A stretch of DNA of 51,376 nt from Minisyncoccota bacterium (GCA_028697015.1 JAQVFW010000003.1:1-51376); one strand, 5' to 3'. Shown: positions 1-39,126, counted from the first letter of the stretch. Program-made: numbers and translations. Notes: a model not told the origin generated them from the letters alone.

Positions 1-124
1 GGATAAAAGCCTGAAAACCTTAGATAATTTGGCTTTTTAAAATATTCAAAGGCGTTTTTTTGTTTCAAGATTTATTAAAAATTTTGAAACTAAATGGCTG
101 TGGATAATTATGTGTTAACATAAA

Positions 125-358: not shown

Positions 359-373
359 AATTTTTAGAAGTTT

Positions 374-883: not shown

Positions 884-888
884 TTTAT

Positions 889-958: not shown

Positions 959-1155
959 GTGGAAAAACAATAAGTGAAAATATCAAGAAATTGCGGGCTA
1001 AACTTGGATTAACTCAAGACGATTTGGCCAAGAAGGCGGATATTAAATACACCACGCTTATGAAGGTAGAGAGCGGAACAGTTAATAAGCCGAGCGTTCA
1101 AACTATGGCGAAAATCGCCAAAGCGTTGGGTGTTTCGATAGAAGATTTACTATGA
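952..1155 (+). CDS. XRE-family helix-turn-helix transcriptional regulator (67 aa)
   Basis: ENIKKLRAKLGLTQDDLAKKADIKYTTLMKVESG...IAKALGVSIEDLL is a classic Cro/C1 HTH pattern. It is homologous to the XRE at 33052..33249 and overlaps the next gene by 4 nt. Confidence 0.85.
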   Translation: MTSGKTISENIKKLRAKLGLTQDDLAKKADIKYTTLMKVESGTVNKPSVQTMAKIAKALGVSIEDLL

Positions 1156-1769: not shown

Positions 1770-1773
1770 AATT

Positions 1774-2568: not shown

Positions 2569-2570
2569 TT

Positions 2571-3116: not shown

Positions 3117-3117
3117 A

Positions 3118-3321
3118 GGCGGTGCGCCAACTTCGTTGGCACGAAAAATTGCGGCGGCGAAAAAAGAAGAGGCGAAAGCGAGGGCGGGCAAAAATTCCTT
3201 CCCCCCAACCCCCTTCCTTTTTGCGCGCCCGAGCGTTCAGTTTTTGTTCTGCCGCGCGAAGCGCGGCAATCAGTCAGGATTTTGTTCAAAATGGGTTCTG
3301 ACTTTTTCCAACAAACACCAC
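3118..3321. repeat. Distal inverted copy of the Y' arm (imperfect inverted repeat of 623..~803)
   Basis: The reverse complement begins tgtttgttggaaaaagtcagaac(c/t)cattttgaacaaaatcc, like 623 onward. It is GC-rich, starts 2 nt after the phosphatase stop, and its stems carry compensatory differences. Confidence 0.8.
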
Positions 3322-3476
3322 CAAAGTTAACTTATTGCCTTGTTTTAAATATTTATTCTTCTCTTTTTATAGCGGGAATTTTTAAAATTGAATTAAAAAT
3401 CAATTTCACTAATTTTTCCGTAATTTATTTTTTTTCAAAAATATGGTACGCTTATCTGAAAGAAAATAAATCTAAA

Positions 3477-7065: not shown

Positions 7066-10046
<2,981 letters not shown>

Positions 10047-10100
10047 TGGTTGGCTAATAATTTGTGGTTGTAATTTAAAAATTGTTTATTGTTATCATAA

Positions 10101-10204
10101 GGGGACTATACTGGTGTTGCTCCACCCGTTCCCATTCCGAACACGGAAGTGAAATACACCAAGGCCGATGGTAGTCCTTATGGGCAAGAGTAGGTAGTCC
10201 CCCT
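10101..10204 (+). rRNA. rrf: 5S ribosomal RNA
   Basis: Terminal helix ggggacta/tagtcccc plus the conserved ccgaacacggaagt and ggtagt blocks. At about 104 nt it is short. Confidence 0.85.
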
Positions 10205-10295
10205 ATAATGACCGTAAACTATTTTAAAAAACGGAATTAAAAACCCGTATTTTTTTTACCCTTTATTTTTCCCTTTATTTAAGTTATTATGCTAT

Positions 10296-24094: not shown

Positions 24095-24161
24095 AATATT
24101 TCAAGGATTATAGCGAATAACTTTCAGTTAGTCCATTTTAAGAAAAACTTCTCTGCATTTT

Positions 24162-24510
24162 GTGGTGTTTGTTGGACGAAATCCGAACCCATTTTGAGCA
24201 AAATCCAGAGGATTTTGCGGATTGAATCCCGCCCAGCGTTTCCGCCCGCCTCCGCTTCGCTTCGGCGAGCAAAACAGAAAAATTTTCTCTACATTTTTTA
24301 ATCGCCTGTCCCCCAAATTTTTTTTCAATTAAGGAAAAGAAAATTTTTCTGTTTTGCGTTCCTCTTGCGAGAGGAATTGCGGAAACGCCCCCACCCCATT
24401 GTCCGCCTTCGGCGGACTGGCAAGCGGGCAAAAATTCATTTTCCCCACACCCCTTTTTCTTTTTGCCCGCTTGCTTTCGGGATTCGGCTGATTTTTTTTG
24501 CGGACGGGCT
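24162..24510. repeat. Y arm, distal copy: 349-bp perfect inverted repeat of 33423..33771
   Basis: A hand reverse-complement comparison is identical throughout. The spurious ORFs 24138..24431 and 33256..34014 encode the same roughly 93-aa stretch, which confirms the identity. GC-rich and hairpin-dense. Confidence 0.9.
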
Positions 24511-24570
24511 ACAAATCAAAAGGGTGGAGGGTGGGTATAAATTAAATTGATCCTGTCTTTTATCTACTTT

Positions 24571-25752
24571 CTATTTTACCACTTTGACAACTTTTTCGGA
24601 AGAAGACGAAATTTCTAAACGATCGGGTTGCTTGCAAATTTTCTCAAGGTCATAGATAGTACTAATTTTCCCCGACAGAACACTGATAAAAGTCGGGTTA
24701 CTTGTATGATATTTAATAATTGTCGGCCTAGAATCGTCATTTTCCGAAGACCTTAATATTGCCTTTATTTCAAATTTTGAATCTTTGTATTCAATTTTAA
24801 AATTGTGTTTTAGAAATGACTGACTTAGTGCATACATCTTATTCCAGGCCGATCTTAAATTTTGTGAACAAACAACACATCCACTGACTCCGTGCATTTC
24901 ACAAATAGACTTATTAGCATGATTCTCAAAAATCGGAAACTTGTCGCAAGAAACAGAATGAGGAGTGTGTCCAACGGAAGTTAATACGTGAAGGTTGGAG
25001 TCCCCAAAGGGCATGATAGAAAAGAAATCGCCGTCCATTACAGTAATCCCTAAATTTTTGAATTTTTTAGGTACTTCACAAAGAACCATTTCGCACAATT
25101 CGTATTTTAAGTCAAAAAAATTCTGGCCAAATTTATTAATCACTTCATTAATCCCAGAGTATGATGCGTTAATAACGAGAGGAGCCGACAAGCAGGTGTC
25201 GTTATCTAGAATGACATTATATGATGGATTTACTTTTTCAACCGCTTTGATGCCAGTGTTGTAATAATAAGTCGCTGAATTTCCAATTTTATCTATAAGA
25301 AAATCTCGTATCTTGGCAAAATCAAAACTGCACTCCTGTGTTAAAAAGGCAGCTTCTACAGAACCCTTTTTAAAATATAAATCAGCATCTATTTTTTGAA
25401 GAGGTATGTTTACTTTTCTGCAAAAATTAGTAAATTCTTGTGCGGATGTTTTGGACCCCTTACTTGAAATAGCATATACCTGCTTAAAAGAGTCGTTAAT
25501 GGCAAAATTAAATTCTCGAATAAATCTAGCGTAATACTCCGCTACCTTTTTGGCGGTTTCGTAGCTACGCGGGTAGTGATAACCATTATGCACCCTCGCC
25601 TGATTGATTGCGCTGGCACGAGAAAATGGTCTGACACTTTTGTCTATAATAGCAACACGTTGACCCTGTCTGACTAAAAGCGAAGCCGCATACAATCCAA
25701 AAATGCCGGCTCCAACAATTATGCAATCTGTTTTTTGTTCTTTTTTATTCAT
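24571..25752 (-). CDS. FAD-dependent oxidoreductase (DAO-like, 393 aa)
   Basis: DCIIVGAGIFGLYAASLLVRQGQRVAIIDK is a Rossmann GxGxxG motif. Confidence 0.75.
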   Translation of the reverse strand: MNKKEQKTDCIIVGAGIFGLYAASLLVRQGQRVAIIDKSVRPFSRASAINQARVHNGYHYPRSYETAKKVAEYYARFIREFNFAINDSFKQVYAISSKGSKTSAQEFTNFCRKVNIPLQKIDADLYFKKGSVEAAFLTQECSFDFAKIRDFLIDKIGNSATYYYNTGIKAVEKVNPSYNVILDNDTCLSAPLVINASYSGINEVINKFGQNFFDLKYELCEMVLCEVPKKFKNLGITVMDGDFFSIMPFGDSNLHVLTSVGHTPHSVSCDKFPIFENHANKSICEMHGVSGCVVCSQNLRSAWNKMYALSQSFLKHNFKIEYKDSKFEIKAILRSSENDDSRPTIIKYHTSNPTFISVLSGKISTIYDLEKICKQPDRLEISSSSEKVVKVVK

Positions 25753-25755
25753 AGC

Positions 25756-26568
25756 TTACTGGTAAATATTTTTTACAAAGGAAATTATCTTAGAAATATT
25801 TTTAATATTTTGTCTGTCACTCGGTCGCATCTCAACAGAGACAAACCCATTATAATTTCCATCATTGAGAGTTCTAGCGATGCTTCTATGAAGTGGTCGG
25901 CTAAGGTTAATAGTTTTCAAATACGGCTCGCTTATATGTACATGGCCTACATAGTCAATGTTCTTGTTTATTATTTTCTCAATATCTTCCCCGTTCAAAA
26001 TTGACGAGCCAATATCTAAATTAATTTTGAGAGAACGATGGCTAATCGTTTTAACAAAATCTACAGCTTCTTGTGTATTACAAATGAAATCAGCACCATA
26101 GGCGGTTGGCGTTGGCTCAATACAAAAAATTACATTATAAAGCCTGGCCTGTTCTGCTATTTGTATGAAAAAATCTTTCGCAATACCCATAGCTTTATTG
26201 TGCGGCAGTGTGCCTCTGATTTTATTTTTGGGCGAACCGAATACCGCAACAGTTGCACCAATCTGATTTAAAAACTCCAAAACGCCTCTTAGGTGCTTCA
26301 ATATTTTGTTGCGAGCGGTTGCTCCTTCAAAAATAGAAACTTCAGGATACCTGAACATCAGCGCTTGAAAAGCCGCAACGTGTATCCCGTATTGATTTAA
26401 TAATTTCGAGGTTTCGTTATAGAACTGTTCTTTTGCCTCCGGTAAGGTGCTGGCATCTCGAAATGGACTGATTTCCATATTCAGTACGTTCAAATCACGT
26501 ATAATATTAAAAACTTTCTCGTCTTCCGATTTTCTCCAGGCTAAATTTGAAATCGCAATTTTTGTCAT
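25756..26568 (-). CDS. Sugar phosphate isomerase/epimerase (xylose-isomerase-like TIM barrel, 270 aa)
   Basis: The overall pattern (IEP.P...HVHISE, VSVEM) resembles the AP-endonuclease-2/TIM-barrel family. Assignment is by motif memory only. Confidence 0.6.
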   Translation of the reverse strand: MTKIAISNLAWRKSEDEKVFNIIRDLNVLNMEISPFRDASTLPEAKEQFYNETSKLLNQYGIHVAAFQALMFRYPEVSIFEGATARNKILKHLRGVLEFLNQIGATVAVFGSPKNKIRGTLPHNKAMGIAKDFFIQIAEQARLYNVIFCIEPTPTAYGADFICNTQEAVDFVKTISHRSLKINLDIGSSILNGEDIEKIINKNIDYVGHVHISEPYLKTINLSRPLHRSIARTLNDGNYNGFVSVEMRPSDRQNIKNISKIISFVKNIYQ

Positions 26569-26569
26569 A

Positions 26570-27403
26570 TTATTTATCTAATTTCATTTTTTTTACTTTA
26601 ATACCGCGCACTCGTAAAAATTTTATTCCATCATCGTTACCGTAAGGGTGTAGATAATATATTTGGGTAAGTTGGCTCTTGAGTATTTCTTGAGCACAAA
26701 GTTTGCATGGCGGAATAAGAATATAGAGCTTGGCTTTCTTAAGATCAATCCTTTTTAATTTCGCTTTCTTTAAGACAATCTGCTCGGCGTGCATATTCTG
26801 GCTTTCAATGTTGTCTGATTCGGCCACAATTTTATTATCAAAAGTAACCAGTGCGGATATTTTTCCGATGGCCGCCTTGCTGTTATCAGCAATAAAATAA
26901 AGGCGACGGGCAATAGGGTTTTTTATTTTGGAATAATCTCGACGCATTAAAAGTCTTTTTATAAAGTAGTCGGCGTTATATTGATGTAAATTATTGTCAA
27001 GAAAAAATATCCTGATACTTGGAAATCTTTCAGTGATTAAGCTGGCGGTAAATTTTCTATGTTTCATTATGCCCCTTGGATAAATATAATTTCTGGGCCT
27101 TATGATCTGTAAATATTTCTCATAGTCAGATGGTCTTTCGAGAATCAATACAAAATCAACAAATTCAAGGACGGCAACCATTCCAGCTCTCTGTCTCTCG
27201 TTCATTATCGGCCTGCCGAATCCAGACCGGATTTTTGCTGTCTTATCGGCTTGAACTACAACAACGAGTGGTCTCCCAACCTTACTGCATTCTCGTAAAT
27301 AGCGAACATGCTCAATATTGAACAAATCAAAAACATCACCAACAAGAGTGGCGGTAAATGGCTTAAGCTTTTTTGTAAGTTTTGAGAGAGTAATAATCTT
27401 CAT
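26570..27403 (-). CDS. Fusion: cytidylyltransferase-like (TagD/RfaE-II type) N-domain plus CMP/dCMP-type zinc deaminase C-domain (277 aa)
   Basis: The N-domain has GDVFDLFNIEHVRYL...VVVVQAD...GRPIMNERQR...VDFV. The C-domain has HAEQ...PPCKLCAQ (HAE plus PCxxC). Confidence 0.65.
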   Translation of the reverse strand: MKIITLSKLTKKLKPFTATLVGDVFDLFNIEHVRYLRECSKVGRPLVVVVQADKTAKIRSGFGRPIMNERQRAGMVAVLEFVDFVLILERPSDYEKYLQIIRPRNYIYPRGIMKHRKFTASLITERFPSIRIFFLDNNLHQYNADYFIKRLLMRRDYSKIKNPIARRLYFIADNSKAAIGKISALVTFDNKIVAESDNIESQNMHAEQIVLKKAKLKRIDLKKAKLYILIPPCKLCAQEILKSQLTQIYYLHPYGNDDGIKFLRVRGIKVKKMKLDK

Positions 27404-27472
27404 AAGTTAAAAAGAAAGGGGGAAATCCATGGAAGGAAATCCCCCTGTCGAAGAACGATGCCAAACGCTCAT

Positions 27473-28450
27473 CTAAATGAACAGTTCCGGACAATGCCTG
27501 GCGATCATCGCGTCCGCGATTCTCGTCAAGTTCTCCATTGAATCGGAATTGTCGATGATGATGTCGGCGACATCTGCGATTGCGGGAACTCCCCACTCCC
27601 TCTTGATCTGATCACGGGGCAACATCAGCTTCCGCGCTTCATCCAAAGAGGTGAGGTTTTGACGAATCATCTGCCGTTGGAGACGGATGTCTTCATCCAT
27701 GTCCACGTAGACGATAACGACCTTGTCCGGCCCGAGGCGCTTACGCAGGTGAACGCCGAGACCAGCACTATAGAGACTTTCAAGGCAGCAGAATTCGATG
27801 CCCTGATCGGTGATCCACGGGATGAATTCATCGGCGAACGTCCGGAAGACCCACTCTGGCCTTTCCTTCATGTTTTGGTTATTCCACTCAACGAAATCGC
27901 CATTCACGCCTTCGCGTTCCATCGCGCGCTTCAGGAAGAAGGTGATCTTCAACCTCTTGATGCCACGCTGGTCGAGGTAACGACCCAAGGTGCTCTTGCC
28001 GGACTCGCTCATCCCGCCGATAACGAACACTTTTTTCATACTGTAGTCCTCCATGAGAAGTTGTATTTCTCGCTTGGCCCTCGCTGGAGTGTGAGGACCG
28101 TGAGCGACGTTCCTGATGATGCTTTCCGCCCATCGGGAGCGGATTCCGGAAGCAGGCACGCGTTTTCCGATGATCTGGCGAACCTTGTTGACGGCATCGT
28201 ATCCATCCACAATGAAGATGTGTACGGGCGACGACGACATGAAGGCCACCAACTCAGAGAAGTAATCGCGATGCCGTACATCGCTGATATTCCAGTAGAG
28301 CATCTCTACTGTGGCCGGTTTGAGCGTCTTACGAACCTCTCGCTTGATCACGAGTCCGTTTCGGATAAGGATTTGCCGTATCGGATCCACCAACCCTCTC
28401 TCAACGCCGTCCGGCTTCACCACCAGCATGGAAACTTCGAACTGGCTCAT
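27473..28450 (-). CDS. Fusion: nucleoside diphosphate kinase-like domain plus P-loop (nucleoside/nucleotide) kinase domain (325 aa), GC-rich
   Basis: MLVVKPDGVERGLV...RNVAHGP matches the NDK fold including the catalytic His. Walker A is IGGMSESGKST. GC is about 55% against about 30% in neighbouring genes. Confidence 0.7.
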   Translation of the reverse strand: MSQFEVSMLVVKPDGVERGLVDPIRQILIRNGLVIKREVRKTLKPATVEMLYWNISDVRHRDYFSELVAFMSSSPVHIFIVDGYDAVNKVRQIIGKRVPASGIRSRWAESIIRNVAHGPHTPARAKREIQLLMEDYSMKKVFVIGGMSESGKSTLGRYLDQRGIKRLKITFFLKRAMEREGVNGDFVEWNNQNMKERPEWVFRTFADEFIPWITDQGIEFCCLESLYSAGLGVHLRKRLGPDKVVIVYVDMDEDIRLQRQMIRQNLTSLDEARKLMLPRDQIKREWGVPAIADVADIIIDNSDSMENLTRIADAMIARHCPELFI

Positions 28451-28452
28451 AA

Positions 28453-29226
28453 CTATCTACCTCTTTTCTTTTCGACGTACTGTGCGGGCCAGTCGATGTC
28501 AATTGCCATCAGCCGGCCGGTTTCGGTGAATGCGAACTCCAGTGTTGGAAGCCGCGAAATGAGCCGCAACTCCTCAAAGCTACCCATCGGAGGCATTGCT
28601 CTACAAATGCTCCGAATCACACCGAAAGAGCAAATGTTAAGGTAGCCTATTTCTCGGAGACGGCGGCTATCATCAAGATAGCCACGCCTTGTCACTTCCA
28701 GAAAGCTTAACTCACCAACGTATGTCGGCAGTTGCCGATCGTTAATGAGCTTCGCCGGAACAGTACACTGCTGGATTTCAAGGACCTGATTGTCCATGGA
28801 AGTGTATATTAGTCGTCCAGCGATGGCGCGCTCATTCCAAGGGCGTGGAGTAAACTCCACCCAAGTCGTTTGCGGGTATTGCCCGATAACCGCTAACGCC
28901 TTGTCCGTCGAGATGACTTGCTTGACGCCTTGGTCGTCGCGCCATTGCACACTGTCAGAACTATTCACGACAAAGAGCGGCGGCACAAGCGTATGCATCG
29001 GCTTTTCTGACACGATGATCAAAAAAGGACACCCCTCGGAGCAGTACTCATCGAGGAACTGTTTGACTTTTTTGGCTTCGCTAGATCGGCACCCCTTTAA
29101 CTTGGGATCGCCAGGGAAACCCAGTGCTTTCAATAGAGCCCTTTTTTGCAATCGCAACGGCAGGCTCAGGTCAATGTCGTACTTGCTTCCCGCGTTGGCA
29201 AGGAAGCATTCATTCATTACTATCAT
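28453..29226 (-). CDS. Hypothetical protein (257 aa), GC-rich, no family recognised
   Basis: Long ORF on the operon strand with a strong SD (gaggaggcaaaccATG on the coding strand). It is co-compositional with the NDK fusion, and its stop is 2 nt before that gene's start. Confidence 0.6.
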   Translation of the reverse strand: MIVMNECFLANAGSKYDIDLSLPLRLQKRALLKALGFPGDPKLKGCRSSEAKKVKQFLDEYCSEGCPFLIIVSEKPMHTLVPPLFVVNSSDSVQWRDDQGVKQVISTDKALAVIGQYPQTTWVEFTPRPWNERAIAGRLIYTSMDNQVLEIQQCTVPAKLINDRQLPTYVGELSFLEVTRRGYLDDSRRLREIGYLNICSFGVIRSICRAMPPMGSFEELRLISRLPTLEFAFTETGRLMAIDIDWPAQYVEKKRGR

Positions 29227-29281
29227 GGTTTGCCTCCTCGCAAAGTAGGTTTTGGTTTATGTCAAAGAACGATATACTACC

Positions 29282-30031
29282 TTAACTCTTTATCCCTAAT
29301 TTGTCAACATCGTGTATATTATGAATAGCAATCCAACTCCCGTTGTAAATTGTTGCTTTCACCATATTTTCACCCAATTTAAAAATATCATGAATTACAA
29401 AATCTAAATCTTTTTTATAGGCGAAAGAAGGAACAGATGAAAAAACGCCTCTGTTGAACGCCATTAATCCAAGGCTGTAGTATTGTTGCCCCTCAATATT
29501 AATATTTTCATCTTTGGTGTTCGGCAACCGTGTATTTACTGATTTAACTCTTCCCTTGTGCACAACAATTCGTGAATGAGTTGGCGCAAAATCTTTAGAG
29601 TTTAGAACAATGTTGGCAATGGTCGGCTTCGATAACTCAGTATTCTTTATCTTTTTCAGAATGTTTTTGTTATACAAAATGTTGCCATCTGAATATATAA
29701 AGGGCCTTCTAAGTTTCTGTCTAACTGAATATAACAACCACGGCACGCCCCATTTTCTTCCCGTCTTGCCCCCGTAAATTGGTGTGATCTGATTAGCTGT
29801 TGGATAATTTTCTTTCAAAAAATCTCGCAGCTCCCGTTCATAATAACTAGACAGCAAAAAAATTCTTTGGAAATTTAAGGCAAGTGACATATCAAGCAAA
29901 TGACCCAAAAACGGTTTGCTGTTCAATTCCAAAAAAATCTTGGATGCTTTGATTTCTCTTTTCTTTAAATCGGCTATGATGCGCCTGCCTTGACCGCCAA
30001 CGGCTATCACAATAGTGTCAATACTTTTCAT
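29282..30031 (-). CDS. Nucleotidyltransferase (sugar-phosphate nucleotidylyltransferase-like, 249 aa)
   Basis: The N-terminal IVIAVGGQGRR resembles the GxGxR NTP-transferase loop. Confidence 0.6.
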   Translation of the reverse strand: MKSIDTIVIAVGGQGRRIIADLKKREIKASKIFLELNSKPFLGHLLDMSLALNFQRIFLLSSYYERELRDFLKENYPTANQITPIYGGKTGRKWGVPWLLYSVRQKLRRPFIYSDGNILYNKNILKKIKNTELSKPTIANIVLNSKDFAPTHSRIVVHKGRVKSVNTRLPNTKDENINIEGQQYYSLGLMAFNRGVFSSVPSFAYKKDLDFVIHDIFKLGENMVKATIYNGSWIAIHNIHDVDKLGIKS

Positions 30032-30735
30032 TTCTTTGGGAAGCTAGGTTTCCAACCCAAGAAGTTATCTAATGAATGAACTCGTCCCTTCATGTTGGAA
30101 ACTGCGTAAAAGACGGCAAAATTATCGGGTACTTTCTTGACCTCAATGCACATCCGTATTAGCTGTACAAAATCTTCTTTATACAGCAAAACTTTATCAT
30201 ACAAAGGATCTTCGTTAAATCTGATCTCATTTCTTTCATTGACACCGCCGAAACGGATGCAAATCACTTCTATATCGTGCTTTCTTGAATAATAACGACC
30301 CAAATGTTCAATATAGATTTTAGTTGCTCCGTAAGGAGTGTCTGGCCAACATTCTGATTTAGGGCTAAGATATGTACCAGTCGGAACCCTTGAATAATCG
30401 TTGGCGTGGACCGAACTTGCGATAATAACGCGAGAAGTATTTTTTTCCACCGCAGCTCGATAAACATTCTCCGCCATAACTTTATTTTGCTGAACAATAT
30501 TTTCGCTTGGAAAGTCTTCTAGCGCGTCCCACGCCAAGTGAATAATAACGTCATTACCTTTGAGAATATTTCTAAATTTTTCATAATCGTTAGTAATATC
30601 CAGAGCAATTGTTTCTTCTCTATCAGGTTTCTTATCTATACACACCAAATCAAATATGTCTTGCAATTCCTTTTGCAAAATTTTTCCCAAAGAACCTCGG
30701 CTACCTGTGATGATTATTCGCTTTGATGATTTCAT
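30028..30735 (-). CDS. NAD(P)-dependent epimerase/dehydratase (short SDR, 235 aa)
   Basis: IIITGSRGSLG Rossmann motif and YGATK (YxxxK). Confidence 0.75.
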   Translation of the reverse strand: MKSSKRIIITGSRGSLGKILQKELQDIFDLVCIDKKPDREETIALDITNDYEKFRNILKGNDVIIHLAWDALEDFPSENIVQQNKVMAENVYRAAVEKNTSRVIIASSVHANDYSRVPTGTYLSPKSECWPDTPYGATKIYIEHLGRYYSRKHDIEVICIRFGGVNERNEIRFNEDPLYDKVLLYKEDFVQLIRMCIEVKKVPDNFAVFYAVSNMKGRVHSLDNFLGWKPSFPKK

Positions 30736-32269
30736 ATGCTTTTATTACTGATTTTGCCATGAATTCTATGTCCTCACGATTTAACCCGGAATTTACGTAC
30801 ACATTAAACATTCTTTTAGTAATGTCTTGTGCTATCGGACAATCCTGCTTCACCTTATTTCTAAGCAAAGTGATTTCAGTTAAAGCAAGGGGGTAAAGTT
30901 TCTTGATTGGAACTCCAAAACTTTTTACGAGATCCAGAAACCTATCCTTCTGATTGGAGAGGTATTTTGGCAGTAAACCAGTTAAGTAAAAATAAGAGTG
31001 CTCGGTGGTGGAGCCAGCGTGCTGGAATTGTATATCGGTATCTCGGAGTAAATTTCTGAATATCCCGGCGTTCAATCTCCTTTTTTCATTATTCTTGTCT
31101 AGTTTTTGCAGTTGCCCAACCGCAAGAGTAGCTTGTATGTCAGTTAATTGATAGTTAAAGCCAACGCGATCATAGTCATAAGCATCTAAATCGTGCTTCA
31201 TAATCCCGTTATTTGCTGTGGAAGTAATAATATGCGCGTATTTATCATTGTTTGTCATTACAACCCCACCTTCTCCGCAAATAACATGTTTTGTCTGATA
31301 CAAACTAAAACAACTTATATCGCCAAAAGAGCCTACATATTTGTTGTCATATTTTGCGCCGGCTGCTTGGGCGCAATCTTCAATCAAGACTATCCGATGC
31401 TTATCGGCTATTTTTCGTATTTCCTTTATTTTGGCCGGTTGGCCATACATGTGAACAGCGATTATTGCTTTTGTCCTAGGAGTAATTTCCCCCTCAATTT
31501 TTATTGGGTCAATATTAAAATCTTCGGGGCTAATATCTACAAAAACAGGCCTCCCTCGTTCTTGTAAAACCACCGAGCAATCAGCTATGTTTGCCAAAGC
31601 CGGCACAATAATTTCATCATCTTTTTGTAGTTCAAGGGCAACAATCGCACAATGTAGCGCAGAAGTTCCTGAGTTGACAGCAAATGCATATTTTTTGCCA
31701 TGCAACTCCGCCATAAGTTTTTGAAATTCAGTAACTTTCGGGCCACCATCCGGTTTTGATAGGAAACCACTCTTTAATACTGCAACAACATTCTGAATGT
31801 CCTCATCATCAACAATCGAATGATTTATTTTATCCAGAATCGCCTGTTGAATAATTTTATTCTTTACTTCATCTGGTTTTAAATTGATTTCCGGAAGATT
31901 TTTAAGGTCAATCCATTTAACCCTATATTCGCCTTTATATTGAGTTCCTGCTTGGAATTCGGGTCCTTGTCCCGTTCCAATTTGGCCATCAACGATATTG
32001 CACATATAAAAAAATTCCTGCTGGCCTTCTATTTCTTGTTTATCGCCAAGTCTTTGTAGAAAAAGTTTCTGCACTTCTATCTTAACTCCCAATTCCTCAA
32101 GACATTCGCGTTTAACGGCTTGTTTGTGAGATTCATTAGATTCTACAGCACCACCAGGTATAACCCAATAAGAATCATTACCTTTAATGCGGTTAATGAG
32201 TAGAATTTTATCCTGCTCAATGATGATAGCGCGAGCTCGCTCTGTTATTTTTTTTGAAAAATTAGCCAT
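30701..32269 (-). CDS. Fusion: Nudix hydrolase N-domain plus DegT/DnrJ/EryC1/StrS-type PLP sugar aminotransferase (522 aa)
   Basis: Nudix box GGAVESNESHKQAVKRECLEELGV. Aminotransferase part: NSGTSALH...EDCAQA...SLYQTKHV, which holds the PLP lysine. Confidence 0.8.
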   Translation of the reverse strand: MANFSKKITERARAIIIEQDKILLINRIKGNDSYWVIPGGAVESNESHKQAVKRECLEELGVKIEVQKLFLQRLGDKQEIEGQQEFFYMCNIVDGQIGTGQGPEFQAGTQYKGEYRVKWIDLKNLPEINLKPDEVKNKIIQQAILDKINHSIVDDEDIQNVVAVLKSGFLSKPDGGPKVTEFQKLMAELHGKKYAFAVNSGTSALHCAIVALELQKDDEIIVPALANIADCSVVLQERGRPVFVDISPEDFNIDPIKIEGEITPRTKAIIAVHMYGQPAKIKEIRKIADKHRIVLIEDCAQAAGAKYDNKYVGSFGDISCFSLYQTKHVICGEGGVVMTNNDKYAHIITSTANNGIMKHDLDAYDYDRVGFNYQLTDIQATLAVGQLQKLDKNNEKRRLNAGIFRNLLRDTDIQFQHAGSTTEHSYFYLTGLLPKYLSNQKDRFLDLVKSFGVPIKKLYPLALTEITLLRNKVKQDCPIAQDITKRMFNVYVNSGLNREDIEFMAKSVIKAYEIIKANNHHR

Positions 32270-33048
32270 ATTCGTAAAGAATTTTTAATATCTTTTGCCT
32301 TACCATTTTGATCAAGAATATCAATTAAATCACAACCGAATTTTCTGCAAATGTTTATTAGTTCGTGTGGATAGTAAAGTCTGATAATATGAACTACATT
32401 TTTTGCTTTACCACCTTTTTTAACTTCCCGAATTTTTGTTACACTTGTAGATGTTCTAAAATCTAAATACCGATCAAAATAAAGTTTCGTCCCATCTTTC
32501 AATAAAACAGAATCTTTTTCTTTGTAGTCTTTTGTTAAAGCAATGGGGTTAATAATCTCAATAATCAACCTCCCGCCCTGTTTTATATGCTGACACAATT
32601 TTTTTATAAATACTTCATTTTTCTTATCATTTTCCAAGTAACCCAACGATGTAAAGATATTCAATACTGCATCAAATTTTCTGGGGATTTTTTTATACAA
32701 AATATTGCCAACAATATAAGAAACAGACAATCCTTGCTGTTTAGCTTGTTCTTTTGCGAGTTTGATAAAATAATCACTTATATCAATGCCGGTTACACTA
32801 TATCCTAAAGTAGCTAAAGTATTTGAAATTCTTCCATAACCACAAGGTGCGTCTAGAATATCCTTACAATTTCTAGGTAAATATTTTGCGATTATGCGAG
32901 CTTCTTTTTTATTGCGCCCCTTCGTCAATATGTTTTCTTTCTCTTTCATATATCGCTCACCCCAAACGCTACTTTGGGCTTTGTACCAATTTTGATGACC
33001 GCTAGCTATTTTACGGATTATTTTATCTTGGTATTTGATGTAGTTCAT
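32245..33048 (-). CDS. Class I SAM-dependent methyltransferase (267 aa)
   Basis: Motif I ILDAPCGYGRIS and a downstream acidic loop. Confidence 0.8.
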   Translation of the reverse strand: MNYIKYQDKIIRKIASGHQNWYKAQSSVWGERYMKEKENILTKGRNKKEARIIAKYLPRNCKDILDAPCGYGRISNTLATLGYSVTGIDISDYFIKLAKEQAKQQGLSVSYIVGNILYKKIPRKFDAVLNIFTSLGYLENDKKNEVFIKKLCQHIKQGGRLIIEIINPIALTKDYKEKDSVLLKDGTKLYFDRYLDFRTSTSVTKIREVKKGGKAKNVVHIIRLYYPHELINICRKFGCDLIDILDQNGKAKDIKNSLRIWLIFQKK

Positions 33049-33051
33049 AGA

Positions 33052-33249
33052 TTATTTTATTAAATCATCAAGTGAAATACTAAAAGCTTTGGCGAGTTTT
33101 TTGATCGTTTCAAGAGTAGGGTTTGGGCTTTGGTCAAGTTCAAGTTTAACAACGGTATTAAGCGAAACATCTGCTAATTTTGAGAGCTTATCTTGAGAAA
33201 TGCCCTTTTCATGTCGCAATCGTTTTATATTTTTTCCAATTGTTGACAT
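33052..33249 (-). CDS. XRE-family HTH regulator (65 aa), first gene of the cargo operon
   Basis: GKNIKRLRHEKGISQDKLSKLADVSLNTVVKLE...LAKAFSISLDDLIK. Paralog of 952..1155. Confidence 0.85.
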   Translation of the reverse strand: MSTIGKNIKRLRHEKGISQDKLSKLADVSLNTVVKLELDQSPNPTLETIKKLAKAFSISLDDLIK

Positions 33250-33296
33250 AATTGTTTGCTGGATATATTATTAAAATGTAAGGATTGTGATATAAT
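33243..33296 (+). promoter_or_regulatory. Candidate promoters reading from the XRE start into the GC-rich leader and the recombinase
   Basis: TTGACA (33243..33248, overlapping the XRE ATG), a 17-nt spacer, then TATTAT (33266..33271). A second extended -10, TGaTATAAT, lies at 33288..33296. The geometry matches module 1. Confidence 0.5.
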
Positions 33297-33422
33297 ATGC
33301 GTATCCCTTCCATTATTATGTTATACGAAAAAAATAAAAATGTCAACGAATTTCAAGGGAGCTCCTTCTTGTCGCCCGCGCACGGGTGCGGTGGGGCAAG
33401 GGCGACTATTGAATTTGATAAT

Positions 33423-33771
33423 AGCCCGTCCGCAAAAAAAATCAGCCGAATCCCGAAAGCAAGCGGGCAAAAAGAAAAAGGGGTGTGGGGAAAATGAATT
33501 TTTGCCCGCTTGCCAGTCCGCCGAAGGCGGACAATGGGGTGGGGGCGTTTCCGCAATTCCTCTCGCAAGAGGAACGCAAAACAGAAAAATTTTCTTTTCC
33601 TTAATTGAAAAAAAATTTGGGGGACAGGCGATTAAAAAATGTAGAGAAAATTTTTCTGTTTTGCTCGCCGAAGCGAAGCGGAGGCGGGCGGAAACGCTGG
33701 GCGGGATTCAATCCGCAAAATCCTCTGGATTTTGCTCAAAATGGGTTCGGATTTCGTCCAACAAACACCAC
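33423..33771. repeat. Y arm, recombinase-proximal copy (perfect inverted repeat of 24162..24510)
   Basis: See 24162..24510. In this copy Y-like homology to module 1 continues further, to about 33365. Confidence 0.9.
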
Positions 33772-33891
33772 CATATTGAATTAGTCGCCTCGCTCGGGGC
33801 TTCGCCCCTCGCTTCGGCAGGCAGTTTTGCGAGCAAATCAAAGGGCTTTTTGAAATCAATTTCCAGTCGTCCCGCCGCAAGGCGGCGGTTC
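33768..33891. repeat. X arm, inverted copy of the recombinase 3' end (124 bp, perfect inverted repeat of 35409..35532)
   Basis: The reverse complement reads gaaccgccgccttgcggcgggacgactgg...gcgactaattcaatatggtgg, identical to 35409..35532. Confidence 0.9.
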
Positions 33892-34026
33892 ACGAATAAA
33901 ATTCGTATTGCCCGAAGGGCAATGAGCCGATTTTTTTCTTTCGCCTTTGGCGAAAGGCAAAGCGAGATTTTATTAAATTGTCGGTGTGGCGTTTCCTTTT
34001 TCAATTACAATTAAACAAATAATTTT

Positions 34027-35574
34027 ATGATTAAATATTTCATCTATTGCCGTAAATCAAGCGAGGACGAAGAAAGGCAGGTTTTGAGCATTGAAGCCCA
34101 GCTCGCCGAGTTAAGAGAGTTTGCCAAGCAAAACAATCTTTTTATCGTCCGCGAATATACCGAGAGCAAAACCGCCAAGGAGCCGGGCCGAGAAATATTT
34201 AATCAAATGCTTTCGGAAATTGAAAAAGGAAACGCCGAGGGAATTTTAGCGTGGAATCCCGACAGATTGGCGAGAAACAGCGTTGACGGCGGAAAAATTA
34301 TCTACCTCGTTGATAACGAAAAAATCAGATCGCTAAAATTCCCTACTTTTTGGTTTGAGCCAACACCACAAGGAAAATTCATGTTGAGCGTCGCTTTCGG
34401 ACAAGCCAAATACTACACCGACAATTTAAGAGAAAACATTTTGCGAGGAATTAGGCAAAAAATACGCCGTGGCGAACTTTCGGCAAAAGCCCCGCTCGGA
34501 TATTTCAACGAGCCGCGACTTCGCACCATTGAACCCGATAAAAAGACATTTAACAAAGTGAAAGAAATTTTGCGGGTTTTTGCCACCGGAAATTACACCT
34601 TAACCAAAATTCAAGACAAAATGTTTTCTCTTGGCTTGGTTGGCGCGAGAAGCGGAAAGAAAATGCCCTTGTCGTCCGTTGAGCATATTTTGAAAAATCC
34701 GTTTTACTACGGGCATTTTCTTTACCGCGGCGAACTTCATCAGGGAAGCCATAAGCCAATGATTGCAAAGAAACTTTTTGACCAAATCCAGCAAGCGTTG
34801 AAAGACAACGGCAAGCCCCGCAAAAAGAGAAAAGAGAAAAAGGAATTTTTGTTTTTGAATTTTGCGAGGTGTGGCGAGTGCGGCTATTGCGTAACGGCGG
34901 ACAGAAAAATTAAAAAAAGCGGCAGAGAATATGTCTATTATTTCTGCACCCGAAAAAGCAAAATTCAAAAATGTGAGCAACGCCGCTTTTTGCGGGAAGA
35001 AGTTTTAGCCGAGCAAGTAAAAGAGAATTGTCAAAAAGTTTCTTTGCCCGATGTTTGGCGGGAAAGATATTTGAATAAATTGAAAGTGTGGGGAAACGAG
35101 AACCGCCAAACATCAGACCTTTTCGCTCAAAATCTCAAAAAAGAAATTTCCGCCATTAAAGCGAAGCTGGAACGGCTAACAGACGCATATTTAGCCGAAG
35201 CGTTGGAATTGGCGGAATTTCAGCAAACAAAAAACGCCCTAATGGCGGAAAAGAAAACAAAAGAGGAAAAATTATCTGATTTTGAACGAAAAGGAAATCA
35301 TTGGCTCGAACTCACCCGAAACTGGATTTTGGAAACCAATCAAGCCAAAAATCTCGCTTTGCAAGATAATTTTTCAGAAATGAAAAATTATCTCAAAAAA
35401 ATCGGCTCGAACCGCCGCCTTGCGGCGGGACGACTGGAAATTGATTTCAAAAAGCCCTTTGATTTGCTCGCAAAACTGCCTGCCGAAGCGAGGGGCGAAG
35501 CCCCGAGCGAGGCGACTAATTCAATATGGTGGACCGTGCCGGATTCGAACCGGCGACCTCTTCAATGCCATTGA
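34027..35574 (+). CDS. Large serine recombinase/integrase (515 aa)
   Basis: Catalytic N-terminus YCRKSSEDEERQVLSIEAQ, a recombinase domain, a Cys-rich zinc ribbon (CGECGYC...YYFCTRK...KCEQ) and a coiled-coil tail. The last roughly 55 codons run through the X repeat and into tRNA-Ala, so the true C-terminus is uncertain. Confidence 0.9.
   Translation: MIKYFIYCRKSSEDEERQVLSIEAQLAELREFAKQNNLFIVREYTESKTAKEPGREIFNQMLSEIEKGNAEGILAWNPDRLARNSVDGGKIIYLVDNEKIRSLKFPTFWFEPTPQGKFMLSVAFGQAKYYTDNLRENILRGIRQKIRRGELSAKAPLGYFNEPRLRTIEPDKKTFNKVKEILRVFATGNYTLTKIQDKMFSLGLVGARSGKKMPLSSVEHILKNPFYYGHFLYRGELHQGSHKPMIAKKLFDQIQQALKDNGKPRKKRKEKKEFLFLNFARCGECGYCVTADRKIKKSGREYVYYFCTRKSKIQKCEQRRFLREEVLAEQVKENCQKVSLPDVWRERYLNKLKVWGNENRQTSDLFAQNLKKEISAIKAKLERLTDAYLAEALELAEFQQTKNALMAEKKTKEEKLSDFERKGNHWLELTRNWILETNQAKNLALQDNFSEMKNYLKKIGSNRRLAAGRLEIDFKKPFDLLAKLPAEARGEAPSEATNSIWWTVPDSNRRPLQCH
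35409..35532. repeat. X arm, copy at the recombinase 3' end, abutting tRNA-Ala
   Basis: Perfect inverted repeat of 33768..33891. It ends in the GTGG core (35529..35532), which lies inside the tRNA 3' terminus. Confidence 0.9.
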
Positions 35575-35602
35575 AGCGCTCTACCAACTGAGCCAACGGC
35601 CC
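35527..35602 (-). tRNA. tRNA-Ala (anticodon GGC), CCA encoded
   Basis: Hand fold: acceptor GGGCCGT/ACGGTCC with the G3:U70 Ala identity pair, D arm GCTC/GAGC, anticodon stem CTTCA/TGAAG with loop ATGGCAT, T arm with GGTTCGAATCC, and a 3' ACCA. Length 76 nt. Confidence 0.9.
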
Positions 35603-39012: not shown

Positions 39013-39126
39013 TTAAGCGGCGTCTGTTTCCTCTGTGCTTGTTTCTTCTGTGGTTGTTTCTTCAGCACCTGTTTCTTCTGTGTCTGTTTCTTCTACAGGA
39101 GCATTGTTGTTATTATTTTCTTCCAT
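39013..39126 (-). CDS. Candidate acidic micro-ORF (37 aa) with EET repeats
   Basis: Hand translation gives MEENNNNNAPVEETDTEETGAEETTTEETSTEETDAA. The underlying DNA carries a gaagaaaca-type periodic repeat. Coding status is uncertain. Confidence 0.3.
   Translation of the reverse strand: MEENNNNNAPVEETDTEETGAEETTTEETSTEETDAA

What the first reader, a model, noticed from the sequence alone, without database searches (positions are those of the whole stretch)
24571..33249. Cargo 2: XRE-led 10-gene nucleotide / nucleotide-sugar tailoring operon rich in unusual domain fusions, carried on the recombinase island
All ten genes are on the - strand with minimal gaps. In order they are an XRE regulator, a SAM methyltransferase, a Nudix+DegT aminotransferase fusion, a short SDR epimerase/dehydratase, and a nucleotidyltransferase. 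These are followed by an unknown 257-aa protein, an NDK+P-loop kinase fusion, a cytidylyltransferase-like+deaminase fusion, a TIM-barrel sugar-phosphate isomerase and an FAD oxidoreductase. Together these could phosphorylate a nucleoside or nucleotide, activate a sugar, and dehydrate, aminate, methylate or oxidise it, with a cytosine-type deaminase and a pyrophosphohydrolase as extras. Plausible roles, all inferred, are a variable surface-glycan modification, a modified (deoxy)cytidine nucleotide or nucleoside-analogue pathway such as anti-phage nucleotide chemistry, or a small nucleoside natural product. I do not recognise the ensemble as a described cluster.
Basis: partly seen in the sequence, partly recalled or inferred. 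Interest (0 to 1): 0.7.

Follow-up and report, generated by a model that had tools for sequence, protein, structure and literature searches.

The report
Mobile amino-sugar-nucleotide operon in CPR bacterium
A ten-gene operon, apparently undescribed and probably making a nucleotide-linked amino-sugar-type small molecule, rides as swappable cargo on an 11.4-kb serine-recombinase element inserted in a tRNA-Ala gene of an ultra-small (Paceibacterota) bacterium; the same operon recurs in about 45 other candidate-phyla-radiation contigs.

Summary
The "unknown 257-aa protein" is a compact ATP-grasp-fold enzyme of a tiny, sequence-isolated family: 40 representatives among 1.84 billion proteins.

The cytidylyltransferase-like half of the deaminase fusion has lost its HxGH motif, so it is probably only a nucleotide-binding domain. 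The deaminase motifs are intact.

The operon is conserved in about 45 loci, almost all labelled Patescibacteria. The fixed core is Nudix, DegT, short SDR, sugar/cyclitol-1-phosphate nucleotidyltransferase, ATP-grasp, NDK and NMP-kinase-like. Tailoring genes vary between loci.

No glycosyltransferase, flippase or exporter is present, all ten proteins are soluble, and no known defence system or curated pathway matches.

The block is cargo of an 11.4-kb large-serine-recombinase element in the 3' end of tRNA-Ala. Two sister-strain contigs show the empty site, with a 4-nt crossover. The cargo is bracketed by 355-nt inverted repeats.

Best reading (inferred): synthesis of an aminated, N-acylated or methylated sugar or cyclitol on a recyclable nucleotide handle. 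The product and its role are unknown. I rate it a new variant of a known kind, of moderate to high interest.

The parts
24157..24511 (.). Left inverted-repeat arm (alpha). The attL crossover core GTGG lies at 24162-24165 and the element begins at 24166.
   Evidence: (I1): 355 nt, 99% complementary to 33422-33776; the empty-site contigs L057 and L061 join 24165 to 35529 with a 4-nt overlap.
24571..25752 (-). FAD-dependent oxidoreductase (DAO family, 393 aa), part of the variable tailoring module.
   Evidence: PF01266, 5e-13; no close solved relative; in other variants a radical SAM-SPASM enzyme takes the place of this gene together with the TIM barrel.
25756..26568 (-). Xylose-isomerase-like TIM barrel, ketose-3-epimerase-like (270 aa).
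   Evidence: Best matches are D-tagatose/psicose 3-epimerases at 9e-9 and IolO at 2.7e-15, which is below the curated cut-off.
26570..27403 (-). Fusion of a degenerate HIGH-type nucleotidyltransferase-fold domain (no HxGH) with a zinc deaminase carrying HAE and PCxxC motifs (277 aa).
   Evidence: FNIEH replaces HxGH in 11 homologues; the deaminase motifs are kept in 10 of the 11.
27420..27445 (-). Weak terminator-like hairpin in the 69-nt gap between the conserved core genes and the accessory genes.
   Evidence: This is a consensus scan only and the hit count is no higher than in shuffled sequence.
27473..28450 (-). Fusion of nucleoside diphosphate kinase with a P-loop NMP-kinase-like domain (325 aa). 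GC 54%.
   Evidence: NDK, 2.6e-24; the kinase half is closest to archaeal AdkA-like/UPF0200 proteins at 2e-10; 129 homologues, all labelled as candidate-phyla-radiation bacteria. GC content.
28453..29226 (-). ATP-grasp-fold protein of a new, narrow family (257 aa). GC 51%.
   Evidence: AlphaFold2 pLDDT 92. Foldseek hits to D-Ala-D-Ala ligases, DcsG, PurK and RimK at about 1e-5; no Pfam, NCBIfam, PADLOC or PHROG hit; 40 representatives in 1.84 billion proteins.
29282..30031 (-). Sugar/cyclitol-1-phosphate nucleotidyltransferase with a GGxGxR motif (249 aa).
   Evidence: pLDDT 89, with TM 0.74 to inositol-1-phosphate cytidylyltransferase 4jd0, RmlA, GMPPB and MurU.
30028..30735 (-). Short NAD-dependent extended SDR (235 aa) with TGxxGxxG and YxxxK motifs, uronate/G6P-dehydrogenase-like.
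   Evidence: (Azf, 2e-22, below cut-off; Udh, 8e-17). The motifs were read from the translation.
30701..32269 (-). Fusion of a MutT-like Nudix hydrolase with a complete Nudix box and a DegT/DnrJ/EryC1 PLP aminotransferase (522 aa).
   Evidence: (DegT 6e-96, NUDIX 8e-13), and (perosamine synthetase 9e-54, glutamine:scyllo-inositol transaminase 4e-53).
32245..33048 (-). Class I SAM-dependent methyltransferase (267 aa).
33052..33249 (-). XRE-family HTH regulator (65 aa), first gene of the operon.
33318..33346 (-). Promoter-like site (TTGACA-17-TAACAT) upstream of XRE, inside the cargo segment.
   Evidence: Consensus scan only.
33422..33891 (.). Internal attP-like site X. It consists of alpha' (33422-33776, the inverted copy of 24157-24511) plus beta (33768-33891, the inverted copy of 35409-35532), with the core CCAC at 33768-33771.
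   Evidence: (I1, I4); the rebuilt circle junction is 470/470 identical to the reverse complement of X; fold z-score -6.5.
34027..35574 (+). Large serine recombinase (515 aa). Its last 13 codons lie antisense to the tRNA gene.
   Evidence: (Resolvase, Recombinase and Zn_ribbon_recom domains).
35527..35602 (-). tRNA-Ala(GGC), the integration target. The attR core lies at 35529-35532 and the element ends at 35528.

Best explanation
The block is a self-contained cytosolic biosynthetic operon for a small, nucleotide-linked amino-sugar-type or aminocyclitol-type metabolite. It is carried as exchangeable cargo of an 11.4-kb large-serine-recombinase element integrated in the 3' end of tRNA-Ala.

Shown:
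- The enzyme families of all ten genes.
- A fixed core order across about 45 loci.
- The element borders, defined by empty sites.

Inferred mechanism:
1. The RmlA/IPCT-like nucleotidyltransferase loads a sugar- or cyclitol-1-phosphate onto an NMP handle taken from an NTP.
2. The NAD-dependent short SDR oxidises a hydroxyl group to a ketone.
3. The DegT enzyme transaminates the ketone.
4. The new ATP-grasp enzyme forms an amide or acyl-phosphate-derived bond on the product.
5. The methyltransferase methylates the product.
6. The FAD oxidase plus ketose-epimerase-like TIM barrel carry out a second-site oxidation with epimerisation or deoxygenation. In other variants a radical SAM-SPASM enzyme does this instead.
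7. The Nudix domain removes or proofreads the nucleotide handle. This domain is fused to DegT, to the nucleotidyltransferase or to a GT2 in different variants.
8. The NMP-kinase/NDK fusion recharges the released NMP to NTP.
9. The deaminase, guided by a degenerate nucleotide-binding domain, converts a cytosine-type base to uracil on the handle or on the product.

The XRE protein controls the operon from a promoter inside the cargo. The product's identity and use are unknown. The mobile, strain-variable setting next to defence-like cargo suggests a conflict or host-interaction role.
For: The ATP-grasp fold comes, and the nucleotidyltransferase fold (TM 0.74 to IPCT, RmlA and MurU).

The core order [Nudix][DegT]-SDR-NTase-ATP-grasp-NDK-[kinase] recurs in about 45 loci. 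DegT and SDR are always adjacent, and both are missing together in L031.

TIM+DAO and radical SAM-SPASM are mutually exclusive. The Nudix domain is fused to DegT, to GT2 or to the nucleotidyltransferase in different variants. Accessory sugar-type genes occur in variants: a TylF O-methyltransferase and a soluble GT2.

All ten proteins are soluble. Genes overlap or are separated by a few bases, and there is a promoter-like site upstream of XRE.

For the element: empty attB contigs L057 and L061; independent MAG contigs covering both junctions; and alpha repeats flanking the cassette in six further loci.
Against: - No enzyme reaches a curated equivalog cut-off, so every substrate is inferred.
- The SDR is short and lacks the usual NDP-sugar-binding C-terminal domain. 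Its nearest relatives oxidise C1 of free or phosphorylated sugars, which fits poorly with oxidation of an NDP-sugar.
- No source of the sugar-1-phosphate (mutase or anomeric kinase) is encoded, unless the P-loop domain is that kinase.
- The Nudix domain looks MutT/NudG-like, that is NTP-directed rather than NDP-sugar-directed.
- A related module (L070, L071) keeps the methyltransferase, NDK-kinase and Nudix-NTase but has no sugar enzymes. This points to nucleotide rather than sugar chemistry.
- Co-transcription was not tested, and there is a weak terminator-like hairpin after the NDK-kinase gene.
Confidence: 0.45

Rival explanations
1. The operon makes a modified nucleotide: an amino-deoxy, N-acylated or methylated NTP analogue. 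The chemistry would follow puromycin, A201A and 3'-amino-3'-deoxyguanosine biosynthesis, in which the ribose of an NTP is oxidised, then transaminated, and a Nudix enzyme detoxifies the product to the NMP. The NMP-kinase/NDK fusion would then rebuild the triphosphate. The product would act as a chain terminator or antimetabolite against phage or against neighbouring cells.
For: The Pur10/Pur4/Pur7 logic (NAD dehydrogenase, DegT-type aminotransferase, Nudix) is documented in PMC11641026 and PMC9239236. Here a Nudix domain is fused to DegT next to an NAD-dependent SDR.

The Nudix domain is MutT/NudG-like. NDK and the NMP kinase are invariant. A cytidine/dCMP-type deaminase is present, with local similarity to anti-phage dCTP deaminases. 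An adenosine deaminase lies next to some variants.

The SDR lacks an NDP-sugar domain, and there is no transferase or exporter. Neighbouring genes are defence-like: SIR2, an MBL-fold protein, a restriction-modification system and PD-Lambda-3_B-like genes.
Against: The invariant RmlA/IPCT-fold nucleotidyltransferase has no role in known aminonucleoside pathways. The dehydrogenase is an SDR, not a Pur10/RifL-type enzyme, and no Pur3 or Pur6 homologue is present. The accessory GT2, TylF and ketose-epimerase-like genes look sugar-directed. There is no match to a PADLOC system and no copy in viral contigs.
Confidence: 0.3
2. The operon supplies an unusual NDP-amino-sugar that chromosomal glycosyltransferases add to a surface glycan, teichoic-acid-like polymer or S-layer. 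This would give strain-variable surface chemistry, in the manner of serotype conversion by a mobile element.
For: The combination of nucleotidyltransferase, SDR, DegT and methyltransferase is the usual toolkit of deoxy-amino-sugar pathways. Some variants carry a GT2 or a TylF-type O-methyltransferase. The element is strain-variable and sits at a hotspot.
Against: This copy has no glycosyltransferase, flippase, polymerase or membrane protein, and the GT2 of the variants has no predicted membrane segment. The cluster never sits inside a polysaccharide locus in the long contigs examined. A dedicated NDK, NMP kinase, Nudix, deaminase and ATP-grasp are not features of known glycan-precursor loci (author's knowledge).
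Confidence: 0.15
3. The genes are a nucleotide salvage or sanitising set for an auxotrophic epibiont. They would interconvert scavenged NMPs, including modified ones, and the sugar enzymes would be unrelated passengers.
For: NDK, an NMP kinase, a Nudix domain and a deaminase are salvage-type activities. The host is a Paceibacterota bacterium. Related NDK-kinase modules sit with an adenosine deaminase.
Against: The strict co-conservation and gene overlaps of DegT, SDR, nucleotidyltransferase and ATP-grasp with the kinases argue for a single pathway. The block is absent from sister strains with an identical flanking S41 peptidase protein and 99% identical flanking DNA, so it is accessory rather than housekeeping.
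Confidence: 0.07

Closest known systems
3'-aminonucleoside module of puromycin, A201A, cystocin and 3'-amino-3'-deoxyguanosine clusters (Pur10, Pur4, Pur7, Pur3; PMC11641026, PMC9239236)
   Same: Both have an NAD-dependent oxidation followed by a DegT-type transamination, coupled to a Nudix hydrolase. Both have a methyltransferase and an amide-forming step on the new amine. Both are small horizontally moved clusters.
   Different: The dehydrogenase here is a short SDR, not a Pur10/RifL-type enzyme. There is no Pur3 phosphatase, Pur6 synthetase, acetyltransferase or exporter. This cluster adds an RmlA/IPCT-fold nucleotidyltransferase, an NDK-kinase fusion and an ATP-grasp enzyme.
NDP-amino-sugar pathways (GDP-perosamine; UDP-L-Ara4N via ArnA/ArnB/ArnC; pseudaminic and legionaminic acid PseB/C/G and LegB/C/G)
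   Same: Both use nucleotidyltransferase activation, SDR oxidation and DegT amination. In the Pse/Leg pathways the nucleotide is later removed by hydrolysis, which is analogous to the Nudix domain here. Perosamine synthetase is the best solved match of the DegT domain.
   Different: All curated models score below their cut-offs (PseC 234 bits against 423; LegB 25 against 475). The SDR is too short to be a 4,6-dehydratase. There is no NeuB-type synthase, CMP-synthetase, acyltransferase or glycosyltransferase.
Cyclitol chemistry: inositol-1-phosphate cytidylyltransferase (IPCT) and aminocyclitol steps of aminoglycoside pathways (StsC/BtrS aminotransferases, BtrN radical SAM dehydrogenase)
   Same: IPCT is the best structural match of the nucleotidyltransferase. 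A glutamine:scyllo-inositol transaminase is among the top DegT hits. The TIM barrel resembles inosose- and ketose-acting enzymes. A flavin oxidase is swapped for a radical SAM-SPASM enzyme, which recalls the use of either an NAD-dependent or a radical SAM dehydrogenase for one step in aminoglycoside pathways (author's knowledge).
   Different: There is no inositol-phosphate synthase or cyclase. The Foldseek margin over RmlA and GMPPB is small. The NDK-kinase, Nudix, deaminase and ATP-grasp components have no counterpart in these pathways.
O-methyl phosphoramidate pathway of Campylobacter jejuni (Cj1415-Cj1420; recalled from the literature, not tested here)
   Same: Both combine an ATP-grasp-type enzyme, a nucleotidyltransferase, a P-loop kinase and SAM methyltransferases to build a cytidine-diphosphate-activated group donor.
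   Different: No sequence relationship was tested. That pathway has no DegT, SDR, NDK, Nudix or deaminase.
Large-serine-recombinase integrative elements (phage integrases such as Bxb1, PMC1470463; SCC-type cassette chromosomes, PMC6222049) and tRNA-targeting cargo carriers of streamlined genomes (tycheposons, bioRxiv 10.1101/2020.12.28.424599)
   Same: The recombinase has the Resolvase, Recombinase and Zn-ribbon domains. The crossover core is short (4 nt or less). attL and attR are clean, and an empty attB is observed. The element sits at a strain-variable hotspot that carries different cargo in sister strains.
   Different: The target is the 3' end of a tRNA gene. The element keeps an internal, perfectly identical inverted copy (470 nt) of its att region, so the cargo is bracketed by 355-nt inverted repeats. 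Excision and inversion have not been observed.

Membership tests
Surface-polysaccharide (O-antigen, capsule or S-layer glycan) locus | Glycosyltransferases plus an initiating transferase | tested here: not met
   None of the ten proteins carries a GT domain. A soluble Nudix-GT2 occurs only in variants L011, L036 and L038.
Surface-polysaccharide (O-antigen, capsule or S-layer glycan) locus | Flippase/polymerase or ABC exporter, that is membrane proteins | tested here: not met
   A hydropathy scan finds no membrane segment in any of the ten proteins, and Pfam shows no transporter.
Known anti-phage defence systems (PADLOC-DB v2) | Match of the component proteins to the models of one system | tested here: not met
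   Only generic domain hits were found: HTH, the methyltransferase core of mad2, the Nudix model PDC-S07, and the deaminase part of dCTPase at 1.6e-7. No system was matched.
Anti-phage dCTP deaminase | N-terminal kinase-like domain plus C-terminal dCTP deaminase, scoring above the NCBIfam cut-off | tested here: not met
   NF041025 scores 31 bits against a cut-off of 400, over residues 174-255 only. The N-terminal domain here has a degenerate HIGH-type nucleotidyltransferase fold.
Puromycin-type aminonucleoside module | DegT-type aminotransferase and a Nudix hydrolase | tested here: inconclusive
   Both families are present and fused.
Puromycin-type aminonucleoside module | Pur10/RifL-type dehydrogenase, Pur3 phosphatase and Pur6 synthetase | tested here: not met
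   The dehydrogenase is an Epimerase-family SDR. No phosphatase and no large Pur6-like protein are present.
Pseudaminic / legionaminic acid pathway | PseB/LegB dehydratase, PseC/LegC aminotransferase, NeuB-type synthase and CMP-synthetase | tested here: not met
   PseC scores 234 against 423, LegC 219 against 420, LegB 25 against 475 and PseB 21 against 408. No NeuB or CTP_transf_3 domain is present.
ATP-grasp superfamily (257-aa protein) | ATP-grasp fold | tested here: met
   The AlphaFold2 model has pLDDT 92.4. Ninety Foldseek PDB hits have E<=1e-3, and the listed top 50 are almost all ATP-grasp enzymes. TM is only 0.35-0.43.
ATP-grasp superfamily (257-aa protein) | Sequence match to an ATP-grasp family model; ATP-dependent ligase activity | tested here: not met
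   There is no Pfam, NCBIfam, PADLOC or PHROG hit. A profile search finds only its own 40-member family. Activity cannot be tested with these tools.
Sugar-1-phosphate nucleotidyltransferase (RmlA/GlmU/IPCT fold; 249-aa protein) | GT-A-like fold with the N-terminal GGxGxR(L/I) NTP-binding motif | tested here: met
   The motif IAVGGQGRRI is conserved. A profile search hits eIF2B-epsilon, GlmU and HddC. TM is 0.71-0.75 to IPCT, RmlA, GMPPB and MurU.
HIGH-motif cytidylyl/adenylyltransferase (N-terminal half of the 277-aa protein) | Catalytic (H/T)xGH motif | tested here: not met
   FNIEH stands in place of HxGH in the window and in ten homologues, and the last His is not even conserved.
Large-serine-recombinase integrative element | Resolvase catalytic domain plus Recombinase and zinc-ribbon domains | tested here: met
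   (4.8e-21, 3e-9 and 1.7e-7).
Large-serine-recombinase integrative element | attL and attR sharing a short core with an unoccupied attB | tested here: met
   L057 and L061 join window 35529 to 24165 with a 4-nt overlap at 99% flank identity.
Large-serine-recombinase integrative element | Excised circular form, recombinase activity | not testable with these tools
   The circle junction would be identical to the internal site X, so contigs cannot reveal it.
Invertible DNA segment (recombinase-controlled) | Inverted repeats bracketing the segment, next to a recombinase gene | tested here: met
   (I1: 355 nt, 99%). The same holds for cassettes L007, L015 and L026.
Invertible DNA segment (recombinase-controlled) | Both orientations present in a population | tested here: inconclusive
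   The two MAG contigs that cross the repeats (L008, L065) show one orientation. Short-read contigs stop at the repeats.

The most novel reading that the evidence does not exclude
The cassette is a portable chemical-warfare or immunity module of ultra-small epibiotic bacteria. It would make an antimetabolite, either a chain-terminating amino-nucleotide or an aminocyclitol-type nucleotide conjugate, using a previously unseen ATP-grasp family and a dedicated NMP-to-NTP fusion enzyme. A large serine recombinase would swap it between tRNA-borne docking platforms, using twin inverted att copies for cassette exchange or flip-flop.
Probability: 0.2. Interest if true: 0.85.

Novelty: new variant of a known kind. 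Interest (0 to 1): 0.6.

Why it matters
Candidate-phyla-radiation bacteria are thought to have almost no biosynthetic capacity. A conserved, horizontally moving ten-gene pathway with its own nucleotide-recharging enzyme and a new ATP-grasp family would therefore be one of the few dedicated small-molecule pathways known in the group. It could bear on how these epibionts deal with hosts or phages.

The precisely bounded element also offers a natural serine integrase with defined attB and attP sequences. Its unusual twin-att architecture may explain how cargo is exchanged in streamlined genomes.

Tried and rejected
Searches that gave nothing useful:
- PADLOC, PHROGs and NCBIfam scans gave no system-level or equivalog match.
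- Rfam found no family in the repeat region.
- There is no relative of the ATP-grasp gene in IMG/VR viral contigs or PLSDB plasmids. Phage records hold only plain NDK genes.
- Literature searches for the gene combination, and for CPR serine-recombinase islands, found no description.
- The exact recombinase protein is not on record.

Ideas rejected:
- Assembly artefact as the source of the inverted repeats. Two independent MAG contigs each cross one arm with unique flanks, and diverged copies of the same architecture exist.
- An active cytidylyltransferase in the deaminase fusion, because HxGH is absent.
- A nonulosonic-acid pathway and an O-antigen locus (see the membership tests).

Considered but left unsupported:
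- A CoA-like cofactor pathway. This rests only on weak CoaE and PPAT-fold similarities.

Full report
**Observation.** They are packed with gaps of 3, -25, -35, -4, 55, 2, 69, 1 and 3 nt. Pfam confirms the following:
- XRE HTH regulator
- class I SAM methyltransferase
- NUDIX+DegT fusion
- Epimerase-family SDR
- NDK plus a P-loop domain
- dCMP/cytidine-type deaminase behind a weak CTP_transf_like domain
- AP_endonuc_2 TIM barrel
- DAO-type flavoprotein

No NCBIfam equivalog reaches its cut-off, no PADLOC system is matched, and PHROGs gives only generic hits. A promoter-like site lies 69 nt upstream of XRE, inside the cargo. The only internal terminator-like hairpin is weak and sits after the NDK-kinase gene. 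All ten proteins are predicted soluble.

**The unknown gene.** The 257-aa protein has 65 close homologues, all about 255 aa long. The few that are named come from Patescibacteria. A profile search of 1.84 billion representatives finds only 40, with no bridge to any other family. An AlphaFold2 model (pLDDT 92.4) matches ATP-grasp enzymes: D-Ala-D-Ala ligases, DcsG, RiPP macrocyclases, PurK, RimK and succinyl-CoA ligase beta. Foldseek E-values are about 1e-5 at probability 1.0, but TM is only about 0.4. It is therefore a compact, sequence-isolated ATP-grasp-fold protein, most likely a carboxylate-amine ligase. Its activity is inferred.

**Other refinements.**
- The 249-aa protein carries the GGxGxR motif. 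Its model (pLDDT 89) superposes at TM 0.71-0.75 on inositol-1-phosphate cytidylyltransferase, RmlA, GMPPB, MurU and HddC. It is a real sugar/cyclitol-1-phosphate nucleotidyltransferase.
- The 235-aa SDR has TGxxGxxG and YxxxK motifs. It is closest to uronate dehydrogenase (8e-17) and to the haloarchaeal glucose-6-phosphate dehydrogenase Azf (2e-22, below cut-off). It is too short to hold the usual NDP-sugar-binding domain.
- The DegT domain is closest to perosamine synthetase and to a glutamine:scyllo-inositol transaminase.
- The Nudix box is complete, and the domain's best named relatives are MutT/NudG-type NTP pyrophosphohydrolases.
- The P-loop half of the NDK fusion resembles archaeal AdkA-like/UPF0200 proteins. 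The NDK half keeps the NxxHG histidine.
- In the deaminase fusion the HIGH-type motif HxGH is replaced by FNIEH in all eleven sequences compared. HAE and PCxxC are kept in ten of the eleven; L019 has HVE and a gap in the second motif. The N-terminal domain is probably a nucleotide-binding module, not a transferase.
- The TIM barrel is ketose-3-epimerase-like. The flavoprotein has no close solved relative.

**Conservation.** Exact-protein look-ups, a scan of species-representative genomes and a metagenome scan gave about 45 loci. A tblastn map shows a fixed core order: [Nudix][DegT]-SDR-nucleotidyltransferase-ATP-grasp-NDK-[kinase]. The fusions are split in some lineages. The variable parts are:
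- the methyltransferase, which is present in most loci;
- a TylF-type O-methyltransferase (L009, L013);
- the slot after the kinase, filled by the deaminase fusion, by a soluble Nudix-GT2 fusion (L011, L036, L038), by a second methyltransferase (L033), or by nothing;
- TIM+DAO or, mutually exclusively, a radical SAM-SPASM enzyme.

DegT and SDR are always adjacent and are missing together in L031. In the most distant variants, Nudix is fused to the nucleotidyltransferase (L050, L051). Labelled records are Saccharibacteria, Portnoybacteria, Falkowbacteria, Komeilibacteria and the Parcubacteria group. Protein identities of 85-90% between lineages argue for horizontal transfer. No copy was found in viral contigs or plasmids. 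The host of the window is a Paceibacterota bacterium.

**The carrier.** The block is bracketed by 355-nt inverted repeats, 24157-24511 and 33422-33776, 99% complementary. A 515-aa large serine recombinase follows at 34027-35574. Its 3' end overlaps tRNA-Ala(GGC) at 35527-35602 on the other strand.

Contigs from two other samples carry the same S41 peptidase next to the DHODH-like gene and the tRNA, with nothing in between. L057 and L061 join window 35529 to 24165 with a 4-nt overlap at 99% flank identity. The sites read as follows:

| site | sequence |
|---|---|
| attB | ..GGTCCAC\|AAAATGCAGAG |
| attR | ..GGTCCAC\|CATATTGAATT |
| attL | ..AACACCAC\|AAAATGCAG |

The element is therefore 24166-35528 (11.4 kb), with the crossover inside CCAC.

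The internal site X (33422-33891) reads ..AACACCAC|CATATTGAATT, which is an intact attP-like site. The junction rebuilt by joining the element ends is 470/470 identical to the reverse complement of X. The excised circle would therefore hold two perfect inverted copies of its att region, one of which was used for integration.

Both repeat arms are real. Independent MAG contigs cross each arm with unique flanks: L008 covers DAO-alpha-S41, and L065 covers tRNA-recombinase-X-XRE.

Alpha-like repeats also flank the cassette in L007, L015 and L026 at both ends, and in L006, L017 and L020 at the one end that was seen.

- A decayed copy of the same architecture, with defence-like cargo (an HNH protein and a Ymh / PD-Lambda-3_B-like protein), lies at window 1-3340.
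- Sister strains carry other genes at the S41 side: ThyA-like, QueC and CYTH.
- In a Komeilibacteria contig a related recombinase sits between a restriction-modification pair and the cluster, just after tRNA-Asp.

Inversion or excision was not observed.

**Mechanism (inferred).** The parts that never vary are a sugar/cyclitol-1-phosphate nucleotidyltransferase, a Nudix hydrolase, an NMP-kinase/NDK pair and the ATP-grasp enzyme, nearly always with the SDR/DegT pair.

The simplest scheme that uses all of them is chemistry on a recyclable nucleotide handle. The handle is put on by the nucleotidyltransferase. The substrate is then oxidised and transaminated, and the amine or a carboxylate is ligated by the ATP-grasp enzyme. 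Optional methylation and a second-site redox or epimerisation step follow. The Nudix domain takes the handle off or proofreads it, and the released NMP is recharged to NTP by the fusion kinase.

This scheme explains why Nudix is fused, in turn, to three different handle-using enzymes. It does not explain three things: the deaminase; the lack of a source for the sugar-1-phosphate; and the short, free-sugar-type SDR.

**Rivals.** The main rival is a puromycin-like aminonucleotide pathway acting on the ribose of an NTP (PMC11641026, PMC9239236).
- It fits the MutT-like Nudix, the invariant kinases, the deaminases and the defence-like neighbourhoods.
- It also fits a second-tier module (L070, L071) that keeps the methyltransferase, NDK-kinase and Nudix-NTase without any sugar enzyme.
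- It leaves the RmlA/IPCT-fold enzyme without a role.

A surface-glycan precursor role lacks any transferase or membrane component here. A pure salvage role is contradicted by the accessory, strain-variable status of the block.

**Comparison and verdict.** The cluster works like known amino-sugar or aminonucleoside tailoring pathways, but it fails the membership tests for each named pathway and for every PADLOC system. I rate it a new variant of a known kind. Its distinguishing features are a new ATP-grasp family, an NMP-to-NTP fusion enzyme and promiscuous Nudix fusions, all carried on a precisely defined serine-recombinase element with twin inverted att copies. The product and its biological role remain unknown. 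Interest 0.6.

Noticed in passing
window 27473-29226; also L003, L004, L006, L012, L015, L040: The ATP-grasp and NDK-kinase genes are 51-54% GC (GC3 0.59-0.69) inside a 31-38% GC operon. The same two genes are 8-17 GC points richer than their neighbours in every variant checked, even at 41% protein identity. As a side effect a 328-aa antisense ORF (27659-28645) appears.
   Followed up: partly
window 1-3340: A decayed second copy of the same element type. It has a recombinase N-terminal remnant (65-358, minus strand) and X-like sites at 493-692 and 3184-3340. Its cargo is an HNH protein, a Hypoth_Ymh / PD-Lambda-3_B-like protein and a histidine phosphatase.
   Followed up: partly
L055, L058, L056 (the site corresponding to window 24144): Sister strains with an identical S41 peptidase carry other genes at this spot. 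These are a ThyA-like gene, QueC, CYTH and a 186-aa ORF, preceded by an X-like site. L057 and L061 are empty. The tRNA-Ala / S41 interval is therefore a hotspot.
   Followed up: partly
window 33422-33891 and 24157-24511: The repeat region is a string of GC-rich hairpins (RNA fold z = -6.5) with no Rfam family. Its cargo-proximal ~285 nt recur next to the cassette in other loci, even where the att core is absent (L020).
   Followed up: partly
window 35527-35574; L057 1518-1591: The native tRNA-Ala gene has no encoded CCA (..GGTCCAC|AAAA), and the integrated element supplies one. The last 13 codons of the recombinase are read antisense through the tRNA gene. The circular form would encode a 521-aa protein with a different tail.
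   Followed up: yes
L069 2198-13600: In a Komeilibacteria MAG the order is tRNA-Asp, a BglI/SfiI-type restriction-modification pair, a 463-aa large serine recombinase, then the cluster. Here the cluster is flanked by direct repeats of about 60 nt that contain a promoter-like TTGATT..TATTAT, not by inverted repeats.
   Followed up: partly
L070 6096-11449; L071 6099-11449: A distant relative of the NDK-kinase fusion (37-39% identity) sits in a different conserved module. That module holds a methyltransferase, the NDK-kinase and a Nudix + NTP_transf_2 (Pol-beta type) fusion, next to an APH-like kinase and an adenosine deaminase.
   Followed up: no
window 7073-10206: 23S and 5S rRNA genes are present with no 16S rRNA gene in the 7 kb upstream.
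   Followed up: no
window 39025-39099: Four tandem copies of a 15-nt unit (TGTTTCTTCTGTG..) (D3). Not examined further.
   Followed up: no
cluster of window 26570-27403: One member of the 90%-identity cluster of the deaminase fusion is labelled as coming from a Nanoarchaeota MAG (1-kb contig). One cluster contig (L013) is labelled Gammaproteobacteria. These are probably binning errors on short contigs, but transfer to DPANN archaea is not excluded.
   Followed up: no
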